Below are positions 25,759-64,000 of a stretch of 64,000 nt of DNA, piece after piece. The notes under the pieces were generated by a model that was given only the letters and a program-made list of their open reading frames with translations, had not been told where the DNA came from and did no database searches. Within the stretch, counting starts at the first letter, position 1. Each line of letters opens with the position of its first letter. The stretch covers positions 269,638,001-269,702,000 of the forward strand of contig OZ024742.1 of the NCBI GenBank assembly GCA_964016885.1, written 5' to 3'. Both the position numbers and the translations under genes were made by a program. The stretch is from Eledone cirrhosa. Lineage: Eukaryota.

Positions 25759-26323
25759 TTGGGATGTTTTTTTACAAACAAACCGAGCATTATAATAAAT
25801 GTTCGGTAAATCCATACGTACATATATATATATATGTGTGTGCATGTATGTATATATATATACTTACTACTGTACGTCTGTATACATATATGTATTTACG
25901 TATACATACTTATATTTAAGTAACAGCCGTACTAAGAGTGAGAAATGAAATTTCGTTTCATTTTTTCCATTTATCGTCTTCGATATGCAAATTAGTCTGC
26001 TCAGCCGTTAATATGCATAAGGAAAGTATATACTTTCAGACGTTCAATCATCTGGCAGGAAGGTATACGGTGCTGACGATAGCTAATATGCTTGAAACTA
26101 GTACATCGTTCCTTTGTCAGTGTTGAATAAAAGGCAACGATTGTTGCTAAACACTGTACGGCTTAATTCGGGATGTTTGTTTACAAACAAACCGAGCATT
26201 ATAATAAATGTTCGGTAAATCCATACGTACACATATATATATATATATATGGGTGCATGTATGTATATATATATACTTACTACTGTACGTCTGTATACAT
26301 ATATGTATGTACGTATACATACT
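25759..26323 (+). mobile_element. Hammerhead-bearing non-coding repeat (retrozyme-like), ~1.3 tandem units
   Basis: GGGATGTTT..TACAAACAAACCGAGCATTATAATAAATGTTCGG recurs at 25761 and 26170 (period ~410). Confidence 0.75.
26067..26109 (+). ncRNA. Type I hammerhead ribozyme
   Basis: ACGGUG-CUGACGA-UAGC(UAAUAU)GCUU-GAA-AC(UA)GU-A-CAUCGU. Confidence 0.75.
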
Positions 26324-27718
26324 TATATATATATATATATATATATATATATATATATATATATATATATATGTGTGTGTGTATATATATGTGTGTGTAA
26401 TATATATATATATAAATATATATATATATATTAAAATAACAGACCACCACATGCCTACACACCTGTACACATATCTACACACAAGTACATGTACCCGCAT
26501 ATAAACATATAGACAAACCCTGTCCTATGTGGGTGTACGTACGCACACACACACATACATACACACACACACACTGACAGATACACACACCATGGATATA
26601 TATGTGTGTGTATATAGAAACGCAAACATACACATGCATACATACTCACACACGTACACATATACATATATATATGCATATACACATATATATATATACA
26701 TATATATACATATATACACATACATATATATCCACACACTTGTCTATATGTGTACACACACACATACAAACACATAGACACACACATATGCCTACGCATA
26801 TCCATATATATATATATATATTTACAAACAGGTCTGTATATGTGCGTGTATTTGTGCTTATGTCTTTGGAAGTGTGTCTGTCCGTGATGCCTATCCATAA
26901 GGATATGCGTGTATGTGCGTGCGTGTGTCTATGTATGTGTCTGAGAGTCTTTGTGTATATATGTGCAGATGTGCTCGAACGCCGATATGTGCCTGTGTAT
27001 GCGTGTACGTGTGTGTGTGCGCGGGTGTGCGCGTGTGCGTGTTTGTGGGACCGGATGTAAGTGGTTGTGTAGGCAGGCGCCAATAGGCATGTGGTGGTCT
27101 GTTTGTGGGTGTGGGTGTGCTTGGGTATGTGTAAGAGAGTGTGAGTGTGTGTGTGCATGGGGGTATGTGTGTCTACACATGTGTGCATACATAAATCTAT
27201 GCCTACGTGTGTGTATGTGTGTGTGTATAGGTGGGTACATACTCGGGAGTGTGAACAGACGTGTGAGATACCAAACCCAGCATAGCTCCATTGAAGTGTG
27301 TCGGATGGAAAATGGCTTATGACCAGCGTAGCAGTAAATAGTGTCCAGAATTTATGATGACGTAGAAAAGCAACAGCCAATGGCATGACAAGAGTGGAAG
27401 ATGTTTTTTGAAGGTGTTTTTTGATGATAACACCCCAGTGAGAAAATTTGGTCCGAAAGAATTGCATGTGTCCGAAGGAACCTGCAGCCGTAGAATCAGC
27501 CAGCGCCATACAGTGATTATGTCTCGAGCTACGTGCCGTAGAATCAATTGTAACACGCAATAAACTGAGTCCAGATGCATCACTGATTTTTCTTTTTTTT
27601 ATACCATTCACACTCTGCTCTGTAAGAATATTGAGTATTAATTTTGGCATACCGCCTATGGAAGCACCATAGCTAGCATTATACACACGTGTATATATAT
27701 ATATATATATATATATAG

Positions 27719-27910
27719 GAGTAAGTAAGACCCCGACGGCTGAGCTCAAGCCGTTTCGACGGCTAATTCTGGCAGAATTAGCTGTCGAAACGGCTTGAGC
27801 TCAGCCGTCGGGGTCTTACTTACTCATATTGCCCACTCTACTACCCTAAGTATTGAGTACTTTGGTGCGTTATGGTCCACCTGGTCCCTTACCAGTTTTC
27901 CCTCGCTATA
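27719..27910. repeat. ~107-bp near-perfect palindrome (27719-27825) plus PLE terminal sequence
   Basis: GAGTAAGTAAGACCCCGACGGCTGAGCTCAAGCCGTTTCGACGGCTAATTCTG-G-CAGAATTAGCTGTCGAAACGG...CTTACTTACTC. Confidence 0.9.
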
Positions 27911-29490
27911 TATATATATATATATATATATATATATATATATATATATATATATATATATATATATATATATATATATATATATATATATATATGTATA
28001 TATATATACATATATATATATAATACATTATGAAGAGAGAAGAAACATTAGATATAATTAATAAGATATACCATACTCAAATTCCTTCTTTACTCCTCGA
28101 CTCCGTAGTTTCGTGGCATATTATGCAAAAACACTACATCACAGAGATATAGAATTTTTGTGAGGTTGGCACCACTAATTCAAGGATATATGCGGATATA
28201 TTCATGTATATGTATGTGTCCGCATGTATCTGTGTGTTTCTGTATATTGTATATATATATATATATATATATATATATATATATATATATATATATACAT
28301 ATGTAGATTATATTTACATAACCCCCCAAAAAACGAAAACCGACTGTAACGTTTACCGAGAGATAGATAGTATTAGCAACTGGAGTGACCGACGAAAATA
28401 TCGTTTCTTCGGTCTGATTTGACGAAAGTCGATCGATCCTTTATATATATATATAAATATATATATATATATCCAGGGAGTGTAATTTTGAGTTATAGTA
28501 GGTTCACCCGGTTGAGCACTCGATGTTTAGGTTCACTTCAGTGTCGAGGTGTAGAGCTAGACAGAGTGTATTATAGTTAAAAGATAACAGGGACGATTGT
28601 TTACTCCTTCATTACATTTATTGATTGGAGACGCGCGTTTAGTCACTGATCTGCTCAAGGTTCGATCTGTATCGATCTTACCCGACTCTGTAATCTACGG
28701 CTCGTTGGTGACCTTGTAATGTTAGTAGGAAATGAATACAGGGTGTATGATAACGTCAGAAGTTCATATGCTGGTCAATAAAGTTTGTTTTGATTGGTGG
28801 ATTAGTTAGTAGGGATGTTTTTGCCTGTAACATATGTGTATGTGTGTGGTGGGGTGATAAGATGGTCTTGACGGTCGCAGGCTGAAGTGGGCGTTGGTGT
28901 GGGGGTGCTGGTTGTCGGTAGACAGATTGGCATGTAGCTGAGGCTGAATTTTGTGTGTGTCGTGGGTATGGTGTTTTTGTTTGTGGTAATGGTGTTTATG
29001 GTGGTGTGATGAATGTGCTAGTGGTGTCAGTAAGGAGATACATACATAGATACACTTTGTCTGACAAATACGTTGTATACATACACATGTGTATATATAT
29101 AGAGAGAGAGAGCCAGTGGAGATGGCGTTGTATAAATAAATATACTTACACATAGACACACACACATGCATTGTTTTGGGAGGGATAATATGTGTTGTTG
29201 ATGTTGATGATTGTTGACGTATGGAGATGTGTCTGGTGGTGGTGGGTGCGACAATATATTAACAGGAACGAATTTTACTATGGATTACATGTTAAAAAAT
29301 GACATAGGGAATACCGGGAAAACAAGGTTGAGAATAAGGGATGGTGGACTTATATCGGTGTATATGGTAGTGGTGGTGGTGGCGATGGGGTGATATGTTC
29401 GACATTGTATTTACAGGATCGGATGTTGTATATATGTATATATGTTTATATATATATATATACATATATATATATTATATATATATATAT

Positions 29491-61715: not shown

Positions 61716-63335
61716 GTTTCTACGCATATATATATATATATATATATATATATATATATATATATATACATATACATATATATACATATACATATATATA
61801 CATATATATGTATAAATTTAAAGACAATGCCACCCACCCCCAGCGCATCAGCTAGGAATCTTACTTTATTAACAAATACGGACCCCGTCTAAACACTTCT
61901 CCCTAAGACGAACCCACAACATACACACGTCAACATACATACCTACATCAGCATATATCTCTATCCACACATAAACACAATGACATACGTAAACACACAT
62001 GTTCTATGGTGCAACACAAATATACACAAATTTGCATACCTTTTGATGTCTATATATATAAACGTGCCGACACACACACATACATAAACGCACACATGCA
62101 TTGCACACTGATGGGCACATACATATTTGTACACAAGTATTCCAATACGGCAAGGCCTAATAGATTCCCCTTGCAGTACTTACAATCTGGATACTCACAC
62201 ACACCTTGGTATTATGCCAATACTATATATCATTTCACACCTTTTATTATTAAGGTTTTTGATGTTCTATTGAGAGAATCGTTTTTACTGAAAATATCGA
62301 ATAATGTACACCATTTTACCAGTTTAACAAAAATACTGGTCTACCCACACACACACACACACACATTCTCACACACACACACACACATTCTCACACACAC
62401 ACACACACATATATACACACACACATACACACGCGTACATTAACATACACAGAGACATATACACACACAGATACACACACACACACACACACACTTCTCC
62501 GTATGAGACAAGAGTCTGAAAAATATCTTTTAACATGTTAAAATATCCCCCACACACGTACAGACACATTCCTACTGACCATCCCTCTACCACGAATTGC
62601 TCTGCTACACACACACACACACACAAACACACACACACACACACACACACACACTTGTCTTAATAGGCATTTGAACTGTCAAGAGGCTGCGGTTCGCACA
62701 CACATCGCTGCTGGCCATTATCACAACAACGAGCCTCTTTACTACTACTACACACACACACACACACATATTTGTTTTGAAAGACTTATTTTTCAGTGAC
62801 TTCTCAATCAGCCGACACAAACCTACATTTGGCGCAAAATCAATGTTTAACATTCAGATGACCTCTATCGACCAATCAAAATTGTTTTGACCACAAGAAT
62901 TTTTGCAACACAAATTGGCGCGAAACTTATTTTAATACCTCTGGAGCCACTTTTTTCACACAAAAACAGGAAGAATTTCCAAAACTAATCAGATTAGAGC
63001 AAACATCACGGACGCTCTATCTCAAAATTGTTTTTGAAAAGCATTAGAAATGCGCAACCGGTAAAACTTAAAACCAAAATTGAATACTAACCAATAATAT
63101 TACTAATTTTCACTTATTCCTATTTAAACTATTTTTCACTGTGAACAATTTGTCAGCATTTACTTTTCCGTTTACCAATATATATATATATATATATATA
63201 TATATATATATATATATATATATATATATATATATATATATGCGTATATATATGTATATGTATATATAAATATATATATATATATATATATGTATATATA
63301 TGTATATGTATATATTTATATATATTTATATATCT

Positions 63336-63530
63336 ATGACATTAAACTACATCCAGTGGCAAGGCTCCAGTTCGGGAGTTCAGGAGATGTGGGGAATGTG
63401 GAGTTACCCCTTAGTTGTCATGACTCCCAGGTCTGCCCTGGCCCGGGGTGGTAGTACCTGTTAGGGCTCCATTTATGGGTTAAGTAACTACCTTATTCGA
63501 GTGGCGCCGGTAAGGTATTGTCAGCCATTG
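63336..63530 (+). repeat. GC-richer interspersed repeat fragment between (TA)n tracts
   Basis: GACATTAAACTACATCCAGTGG..GGCTCCAGTTC..CTCCCAGGTC..GGTAGTACCTGTTAGGG resembles a retroposon-derived octopus repeat (from recall; single copy in this window). Confidence 0.4.
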
Positions 63531-63644
63531 AAAAGAAAAGATATTTATATATATATATATATATATATATATATATATATATATATATATATATATATAT
63601 GTATATATGTATATATGTATATATATGTATATGTATATATATAT

Positions 63645-64000
63645 AAACGGAAAAAATGAAACGAAATTTCATATCCCACTCTTAGTACGGCTGTTACTTA
63701 AATATAAGCATGTATACATACATATATCTATACAGACGTACAGTAGCATGTATATATATATATACATACATGCACACGTATATATATGTACGTATGGATT
63801 CACCGAACATTTATTATAATGCTCGGTGTGTTTGTAAACAAACAACCCGCATTAAGCCGTAGTGTCCAGCAACCATCGTTGCTCGTTTGTTCAACACTGA
63901 CAAATGAACGTTGTACTAGTTTAAGCTTATTAGCTATCGTCAGCAACGTATACGTTCCTGTCATATTGTTGAACCTATATACTTACCTTATGCATATTAA
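63645..64000 (-). mobile_element. Further copy of the ~435-bp hammerhead repeat (hammerhead 63908-63949), running off the window
   Basis: Reverse complement: ACGUUG-CUGACGA-UAGCU(AAUA)AGCUU-AAACUAGUA-CAACGU. G12 is deleted; stem I shows a compensatory change. Confidence 0.8.

What the first reader, a model, noticed from the sequence alone, without database searches (positions are those of the whole stretch)
25759..64000. Retrozyme-like ~410-445 bp non-coding repeat family with one hammerhead ribozyme per unit, at four loci
Seen: the same ORF-less unit occurs at 25759-26323, 41181-42092 (inverted pair), 51751-52482 (tandem, cleavage sites 435 nt apart) and 63645-64000. Each locus starts at a different phase and sits in (TA)n. 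Each unit holds a type I hammerhead with a palindromic minimal stem III (ACUAGU). Stem I covaries between copies (ACGAUG/CAUCGU, ACGGUG/CAUCGU, ACGUUG/CAACGU), consistent with selection on RNA structure. Established: metazoan non-LTR retrozymes are tandem small repeats with hammerheads that yield circular RNAs, and minimal PLE-type hammerheads can act as dimers. Inference: this is a circRNA-forming, non-autonomous retroelement mobilised by one of the local PLE RTs, possibly undescribed in this lineage.
Basis: partly seen in the sequence, partly recalled or inferred. Interest (0 to 1): 0.82.

Follow-up and report, generated by a model that had tools for sequence, protein, structure and literature searches.

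The report
Octopus retrozyme with Penelope insertion marks
A non-coding repeat of about 410-470 bases that carries a hammerhead ribozyme motif sits four times in TA microsatellites of this likely octopus DNA, and its ends match the pattern that Penelope-type retrotransposons leave, so it is likely a small RNA parasite (a retrozyme) that these elements copy, though cutting and RNA circles are untested.

Summary
The repeat and its type I hammerhead are real. Four loci hold an ORF-less, strongly folded 409-471 bp unit in (TA)n. Corrections: only 3 of 5 full-length hammerheads have intact cores; the motif is the canonical metazoan type, not the PLE minimal type; the phases are not random. All 6 visible 3' ends fall at two sites 59-61 nt apart. 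Both inverted loci have one end of each kind and a 3-nt microhomology at the inversion. This is the Penelope-like (PLE) 'tail' signature, also seen on decayed Hydra-type PLE insertions nearby. Upstream of the ribozyme lies the previous unit, not an ORF (3 of 3 loci). Reads show an abundant family whose core G5 is kept (97.6-99.8%). Copies run unbroken across the cut site, so the template was a circle or an uncleaved multimer. No locus has two intact ribozymes in tandem; cleavage, expression, circles and the partner RT are untested. Host likely an octopus; I found no octopus retrozyme in the paper library. The scan noted similar retrozymes and PLE-pattern units on other DNA. Verdict: new member of a known kind, with useful junction evidence for PLE mobilisation.

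The parts
25754..26328 (+). Locus A: 1.4 head-to-tail units (period 409), 5'-truncated, 3' end at site E1, (TA)n on both sides
25916..25974 (+). Internal 'tail' segment (E1 to E2, 59 nt) followed by the head-to-tail junction; holds a hairpin and a 7-nt arm that can pair downstream of the ribozyme
26060..26116 (+). Type I hammerhead, intact core, predicted cut after 26103
41179..41663 (-). Locus B left arm: one unit plus 14 nt (period 471 with expanded internal TA tract), 3' end at E2 (with tail)
41481..41537 (-). Type I hammerhead, intact core, predicted cut after 41494
41661..42093 (+). Locus B right arm: inverted 5'-truncated copy, 3' end at E1 (no tail); 3-nt microhomology at 41661-41663
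41758..41814 (+). Type I hammerhead, intact core, predicted cut after 41801
51752..52429 (-). Locus C main arm: about 1.55 units, crosses two cut sites (51982, 52417), 3' end at E1, 5' end 13 nt upstream of the second cut site
51969..52025 (-). Hammerhead with a private core change (G5 to C at 52010); family reads keep G
52427..52484 (+). Locus C inverted tail piece, 3' end at E2; 3-nt microhomology at 52427-52429
63643..64000 (-). Locus D: runs off the window; 3' end at E2
63901..63956 (-). Hammerhead lacking G12, with a compensatory U-A pair in stem I
48654..50900 (+). Context, not part of the unit: broken Hydra-type PLE ORF (DKT, CxCX5C, YIG motifs), a candidate type of partner
53194..56973 (.). 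Context: broken PLE of similar type in inverted arrangement, one end with a tail of about 80 nt, the other end in (TA)n

Best explanation
This is an ORF-less, hammerhead-bearing tandem unit (a non-LTR retrozyme) whose copies end at two fixed sites in (TA)n and were likely inserted by a Penelope-like element's reverse transcriptase-endonuclease, likely copying a circular monomer RNA. Shown: unit, motif, head-to-tail junction, two fixed 3' ends, inverted arms with microhomology, copies running across the cut site. Inferred steps: (1) a source array elsewhere is transcribed; (2) paired hammerheads cut it to a monomer of about 410-445 nt (the ACUAGU palindrome allows a 6-bp dimer helix III), and a host ligase closes it, as shown for coral, mussel and axolotl retrozymes; (3) a PLE protein, most plausibly Hydra-type, nicks (TA)n and starts reverse transcription at E2 or E1, the two sites that bound the 60-nt tail; (4) it reads through the ligated cut site for 0.1 to 1.55 laps; (5) a second priming from the other strand gives the inverted arm, joined by 3-nt microhomology. 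The four window copies are dead-on-arrival or decaying products, not sources.
For: 6 of 6 visible 3' ends at two sites 59-61 nt apart; random placement gave this in 0 of 200,000 trials, or 14 of 200,000 when limited to AT/TA positions. 2 of 2 inverted loci have one end of each kind, as PLE insertions do (passages); in vitro the tail is the stretch between two RT start sites (PMC11167929). Other local insertions have 58-nt and about 80-nt tails. Upstream of the ribozyme is the previous unit's junction in 3 of 3 loci that reach that far. Longest ATG frame across a doubled unit 54-70 codons. Folding z -4.9 and -5.8 without the microsatellite; 5 of 17 predicted pairs outside the ribozyme have double-sided changes. 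Passes within a locus differ 1.6-3.9% against 9-32% between loci, and 10 of 11 within-locus differences have one allele seen in no other locus, which fits one template read more than once. 0 of 5 visible 5' ends lie at a cut site. Family abundant in organism A: 14,230 of 17.1 million contigs and 86,383 of 12.5 million RAD reads laid; core G5 kept in 99.8% of contig depth and 17,919 of 18,362 reads; listed variants inside the motif fall on N7, loop II and a stem I wobble (40 of 166 rows shown). L001 has the same core with 6 of 6 stem I pairs changed on both sides. The U-U mismatch under helix II also occurs in the axolotl HHR_Amex2, which cleaves.
Against: No cleavage, expression or circle data. 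0 of 4 loci have two intact same-strand ribozymes, so none meets the 'active' test of the 2026 preprint, where 8 of 9 tested dimers did not cleave. 2 of 5 full-length motifs are broken. In vitro a PLE used uncut RNA and did not need the ribozyme, so running across the cut site does not prove a circle. In circular folds stem I is firm only for the mutant copy C (0.82-1.0) and weak for A and B (0.1-0.55); the isolated motif folds no better than shuffles (z -0.1 to -1.3). No DNA similarity to the local PLEs beyond low-complexity or chance matches. Tail is 60 nt, not the 30-40 bp in print. Contig depth falls to about a third across the head-to-tail junction in X1 (0.5-0.6 against 1.6-1.7 million), and 745 loose-end rows were not shown, so ORF-linked copies could be hidden. 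The double-sided changes all come from the two arms of locus B, one lineage. Only four loci; no genome held.
Confidence: 0.55

Rival explanations
1. Same ORF-less, PLE-moved unit, but the template is an uncleaved linear multimer from a genomic array; the ribozyme is slow or protein-gated and no circle takes part in mobility.
For: PAc inserts from unprocessed RNA and ribozyme mutants insert normally. PLE partial tandems and inversions arise without any circle. A homogenised array would also give near-identical passes. 8 of 9 frog dimers showed no cleavage.
Against: Canonical type I motif with conserved bulge and loop II, and a core kept in the family, which suggests selection for activity; related retrozymes give abundant circles.
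Confidence: 0.27
2. The copies are only pLTR fragments of a coding PLE, cut short by 5' truncation.
For: All insertion marks are those of PLEs; PLE pLTRs carry hammerheads; frog retrozymes are kin to pLTRs; depth drops across the junction in X1.
Against: 3 of 3 informative loci run from the ribozyme back into the previous unit through a shared junction, with no ORF between. RAD read depth does not drop across that junction (8,720 and 7,918 against 6,244 and 3,770 beside it). No listed loose end at the junction looks like another element.
Confidence: 0.1
3. The unit spreads by a non-PLE route: a LINE acting in trans, or DNA-level rolling-circle or extrachromosomal-circle reinsertion; the folding is a by-product of palindromic microsatellites.
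For: APE-type LINE remnants are in the window; LINEs also give 5' inversions (recalled); the unit holds TA-rich palindromes.
Against: Two alternative 3' ends with one of each per inverted insertion are described as unique to PLEs; a DNA circle would not fix the ends; folding and covariation persist outside the microsatellite.
Confidence: 0.06

Closest known systems
Metazoan non-LTR retrozymes (Cervera and de la Pena 2020, PMC7229834; parts 2-4 of 6 read, supplement not readable)
   Same: ORF-less tandem unit of a few hundred bp, GC under 50%, canonical type I hammerhead, strongly self-paired RNA; size near the mussel unit (350-390 bp); U-U at the base of helix II as in axolotl HHR_Amex2.
   Different: Here copies are dispersed partial tandems and inversions in (TA)n with two fixed 3' ends; the parts I read describe no such ends and name PLEs only as a candidate partner. 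No RNA data here.
Non-LTR retrozymes as non-autonomous PLE derivatives (Li, Clavereau, Pollet 2026, bioRxiv 10.64898/2026.07.22.740005; parts 1-3 of 5 read, supplements not seen)
   Same: Hammerhead tandem units co-occurring with PLEs; many monomer or partial copies.
   Different: Their evidence is co-occurrence and pLTR kinship in frogs; no mollusc is among the classes listed. Here the evidence is junction anatomy, and no parent pLTR was found.
PLE insertions, Hydra clade (Craig et al. 2021, 10.1101/2021.04.23.441226, passages and section 11; Frangieh et al. 2024, PMC11167929, parts 1-2 of 4)
   Same: 5' truncation, partial tandems, inverted 5'-truncated copy, tail on one end only, (TA)n targets, hammerhead present.
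   Different: No ORF in the unit; tail 59-61 nt rather than 30-40 bp; ribozyme canonical rather than minimal.

Membership tests
Non-LTR retrozyme | Short head-to-tail tandem unit (about 150-450 bp) | tested here: met
   Periods 409, 435-444, 471 bp; shared junction in 3 loci
Non-LTR retrozyme | Type I hammerhead in the unit | tested here: met
   3 of 5 full-length motifs intact; family core kept in reads
Non-LTR retrozyme | No protein coded | tested here: met
   Longest ATG frame 54-70 codons across three doubled units
Non-LTR retrozyme | GC under 50% and highly self-paired RNA | tested here: met
   GC 0.34-0.38; z -4.9 to -7.6
Non-LTR retrozyme | Two or more consecutive units with complete ribozymes (the preprint's test for an ACTIVE copy, not for the family) | tested here: not met
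   0 of 4 loci in the window; copies elsewhere could not be examined
Non-LTR retrozyme | Self-cleavage and linear or circular monomer RNA in cells | not testable with these tools
   No RNA holder listed; needs bench work
Non-LTR retrozyme | Target-site duplication longer than 4 bp when present | tested here: inconclusive
   All flanks are (TA)n
Non-LTR retrozyme | No LTR, primer-binding site or polypurine tract | not tested
   No dedicated search; ARAGORN finds no tRNA gene in the window
PLE-type insertion | Tail on one end only (two RT start sites) | tested here: met
   6 of 6 ends at E1 or E2; 2 of 2 inverted loci have one of each; tail 59-61 nt, longer than published
PLE-type insertion | Inverted 5'-truncated copy and partial tandems; (TA)n target | tested here: met
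   Loci B and C inverted; A and C partial tandems; 7 of 7 flanks (TA)n
pLTR of a coding PLE | RT-GIY-YIG ORF between successive ribozymes | tested here: not met
   Previous unit, not an ORF, lies upstream in 3 of 3 loci; genome-wide not testable
PLE minimal hammerhead (PMC4209133) | No helix III or loop 3; G10.1-C11.1 pair | tested here: not met
   2-bp helix III with palindromic loop; U-U under helix II
Hydra-clade PLE (neighbour at 48654) | DKT motif and CxCX5C linker before a C-terminal GIY-YIG | tested here: met
   KSDKT at 48974 frame, CNCRNKPDC and YIG, against section 11; no tree built

The most novel reading that the evidence does not exclude
A very abundant octopus retrozyme whose circular RNA is the direct template of a Hydra-clade Penelope reverse transcriptase: each genomic copy records the two priming sites and the number of laps round the circle, giving junction-level proof of how animal retrozymes move.
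Probability: 0.35. Interest if true: 0.65.

Novelty: new member of a known kind. Interest (0 to 1): 0.46.

Why it matters
Which enzyme moves animal retrozymes, and whether the circle is the template, is left open in both papers on them that I read. This family carries the PLE two-end signature on an ORF-less unit and gives defined priming sites (E1, E2), so the question can be tested by a genome-wide end census and a PLE priming assay. It would also add cephalopods to the hosts, with an abundant ribozyme repeat that the passages and supplement searched of a 2026 Octopus vulgaris repeat annotation do not mention.

Tried and rejected
No genome held, so no genome-wide consensus, copy number or ORF-linkage test. 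Rfam at gathering score: 0 hits; microRNA hits at E-value level are microsatellite noise. No RNA holder listed: no evidence either way. X4 holds one 478-nt contig over 51811-52187 (20 differences, depth 8) and X5 a few low-depth pieces; a low-copy relative or trace DNA cannot be told apart, so I claim no cross-species range. In the RAD run, about 24,000 loose ends at 52461-52462 looked like a third 3' end; I rejected this, because they and the ends at 52075, 52095, 52164, 52355 sit on AATT sites, which points to the library enzyme (inference). The (TA)n loose end at 51811 (6,181 reads) lies at the unit's inner TA tract and was not counted as an end. Summed contig depth was not turned into a copy number. 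Pattern scans: metagenome 1 hit (L001); viral 0; prokaryote genomes 0. The covariance model finds no further member in the window below E 0.1. A possible link to the GIY-YIG remnant at 11255-11527 was a chance match. Pfam on 52 of 72 long frames did not label the PLE frames; 164 relatives of the 49228 frame are unnamed in the 120 listed, so the PLE label rests on motifs. Paper searches for a prior description listed no octopus or cephalopod retrozyme; the library lacks most subscription papers and Repbase/Dfam, and the supplements of PMC7229834 and of the 2026 preprint, which may list more species, were not seen.
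Full report
Observation. The four loci are one family (blastn 73-94% identity), and the covariance model built from the motif finds no fifth member in the window. Read on the ribozyme strand they are: A, 25754-26328 (+), 1.4 units; B, an inverted pair 41179-41663 (-) and 41661-42093 (+); C, 51752-52429 (-), about 1.55 units, plus an inverted 58-nt piece 52427-52484 (+); D, 63643-64000 (-), cut by the window edge. 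Periods are 409, 435-444 and 471 bp, GC 0.34-0.38, and the longest ATG frame across a doubled unit is 54-70 codons. All 7 visible flanks are (TA)n runs of 12-54 nt.

The ribozyme. A full descriptor (core, 6-bp stem I, short helix III) matches 3 times in the window and 0 times in 100 simulated windows. Intact cores are at 26073+, 41524- and 41771+. The copy at 52012- has G5 changed to C, the copy at 63943- lacks G12, and 52417-52429 holds only the 3' half. So 3 of 5 full-length motifs are intact. The layout is a 6-bp helix I with a UAU bulge and a closing stem, a 3-4-bp helix II on a U-U mismatch, and a 2-bp helix III in the palindrome ACUAGU. PMC4209133 (passages) calls this the canonical metazoan form that works as a dimer; it is not the PLE minimal form. 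The axolotl HHR_Amex2 has the same U-U mismatch and cleaves, better as a dimer (PMC7229834). Rfam misses the motif at gathering score (HH9 18.1 bits, E 0.19). Inside the window stem I has one double-sided change and one wobble. A metagenome contig, L001, shares only the 31-nt core region with the unit and has all 6 stem I pairs and one closing pair changed on both sides (7 pairs, 0 of 500 shuffles, on 5 distinct rows, 6 of the 7 due to L001 alone). Against: the isolated motif folds no better than shuffles.

Family evidence from reads (stretch 51752-52484, 4 of 23 listed runs laid). In organism A, 14,230 of 17,142,217 contigs and 86,383 of 12,467,656 RAD reads were laid, so the family is abundant; no copy number can be read from this. 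At 52010, 99.8% of contig depth and 17,919 of 18,362 reads keep the core G, so the local change is private. Among the 40 of 166 variant rows shown, the others inside the motif fall on N7, loop II and a stem I wobble. RAD depth does not fall across the head-to-tail junction; contig depth falls to about a third, which E2 ends, truncation and a 26-nt deletion subfamily could explain but which could also hide ORF-linked copies. A few opposite-strand joints at varied places fit further inverted insertions, but RAD chimeras can mimic them.

Whole-unit structure. One-period stretches fold with z -6.0 and -7.6, and -4.9 and -5.8 without the inner microsatellite. Two hairpins downstream of the ribozyme keep pairing between subfamilies: 5 of 17 predicted pairs change on both sides, all in the locus B lineage. 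Folded as circles, 66-71% of bases pair; helix II is firm, stem I is firm in C and weak in A and B.

The ends. All 6 visible 3' ends fall at two sites: E1 (26328, 42093, 51752) and E2 (41179, 52484, 63643), 59-61 nt apart. Random placement gave this in 0 of 200,000 trials, or 14 of 200,000 when limited to AT/TA positions. Both inverted loci have one E1 and one E2 end and a 3-nt microhomology at the inversion. Craig et al. (passages) list 5' truncation, partial tandems, an inverted 5'-truncated copy and a 30-40-bp tail on one end as PLE marks, and (TA)n as the target of all Hydra-clade families. Frangieh et al. show that the tail lies between two RT start sites and call it unique to PLEs. Other insertions in this window have the same build, with tails of 58 nt (357-1196, 2135-2460) and about 80 nt (27715-27907, 53194-56973), so long tails are normal here.

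Coding or not. In the 3 loci that reach far enough (A, B left, C) the sequence upstream of the ribozyme runs through a shared junction into the previous unit, with no ORF. The unit is therefore a self-contained tandem, not the truncated end of a coding element, at least here. PLE remnants are close by: 48654-50900 has DKT, CxCX5C and YIG motifs, matching the Hydra clade; 53194-56973 is of similar type. Both are broken, and neither shows DNA similarity to the unit beyond chance or low-complexity matches. The partner is thus unnamed.

The template. All four loci run across a cut site, C across two, and 0 of 5 visible 5' ends lie at one. A cleaved linear monomer cannot be the template. Passes within a locus differ by 1.6-3.9% against 9-32% between loci, and 10 of 11 differences have one allele seen in no other locus; the private E2-side variant of B occurs at both its start and its end. 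This fits one molecule read more than once, that is a circle, but also a homogenised uncleaved multimer; a PLE used uncut RNA in vitro. I put the circle at about two to one. No locus holds two intact same-strand ribozymes, so these copies would not release a monomer themselves.

Host and prior knowledge. A LINE frame at 45066-46310 is 95-96% identical over 22-28% of its length to two Octopus vulgaris predicted proteins, so the host is likely an octopus. Non-LTR retrozymes are known from coral, mussel, axolotl and many other animals (PMC7229834, parts 2-4 of 6), and a 2026 preprint derives them from PLE pLTRs (parts 1-3 of 5). Eight searches listed no cephalopod case, and a 2026 O. vulgaris repeat annotation has no 'hammerhead' or 'ribozyme' in text or supplement; supplements of the two retrozyme papers and Repbase/Dfam were not seen. 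Earlier notes of this scan report a sea-squirt retrozyme and two ribozyme-free units with PLE-type ends in other genomes (unchecked).

Verdict. It works like, and meets the sequence features of, a non-LTR retrozyme; it fails the test for an active copy at these four loci, and activity is untested. New member of a known kind. The added value is junction evidence for PLE mobilisation (about 0.8 overall) and defined priming sites that make the circle question testable. Interest 0.46.

Noticed in passing
window 357-1196 and 2135-2460: Another non-coding family in inverted pairs in (TA)n with a 58-nt tail on one end and a PLE-type hammerhead-like motif (cores at 562-, 933+, 2293+; a related one at 1309-).
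   Followed up: partly
window 27715-27907 and 53194-56973: 3' ends of a Hydra-type PLE family with tails of about 80 nt; they hold a hairpin flanked by U-AGC and GCU-U like the unit's helix II, but no hammerhead core was found.
   Followed up: partly
window 29443-30416, 24094-24906: Further long palindromic insertions; 29443-30416 lies in (TA)n and has a CUGAAGA motif near each end.
   Followed up: no
window 42373-43006 and 52565-53191: Inverted pair of 635 bp, 92% identical, bracketing about 10 kb that holds the LINE, the Hydra-type PLE and locus C; possibly the ends of a DNA transposon.
   Followed up: no
L001 1-1153: Tandem unit of 1075 bp (71 of 78 terminal bases repeat) with the same hammerhead core, a fully different stem I, telomere-like TAACCC repeats downstream and no frame over 95 codons; a separate retrozyme-like element.
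   Followed up: partly
window 11255-11527 (-): GIY-YIG endonuclease remnant with a CCHH-like motif, likely the end of a PLE of another clade (label from recall).
   Followed up: partly
window 6319-6516, 23176-23382, 23615-23815, 30906-31098, 37918-38122, 40137-40343: Six copies of a roughly 200-bp SINE-like repeat; also a mariner fragment at 10040-10489.
   Followed up: no
window 25974-25981 against 52105-52138: Subfamily A lacks about 26 nt just after the head-to-tail junction, between two TCG triplets.
   Followed up: partly
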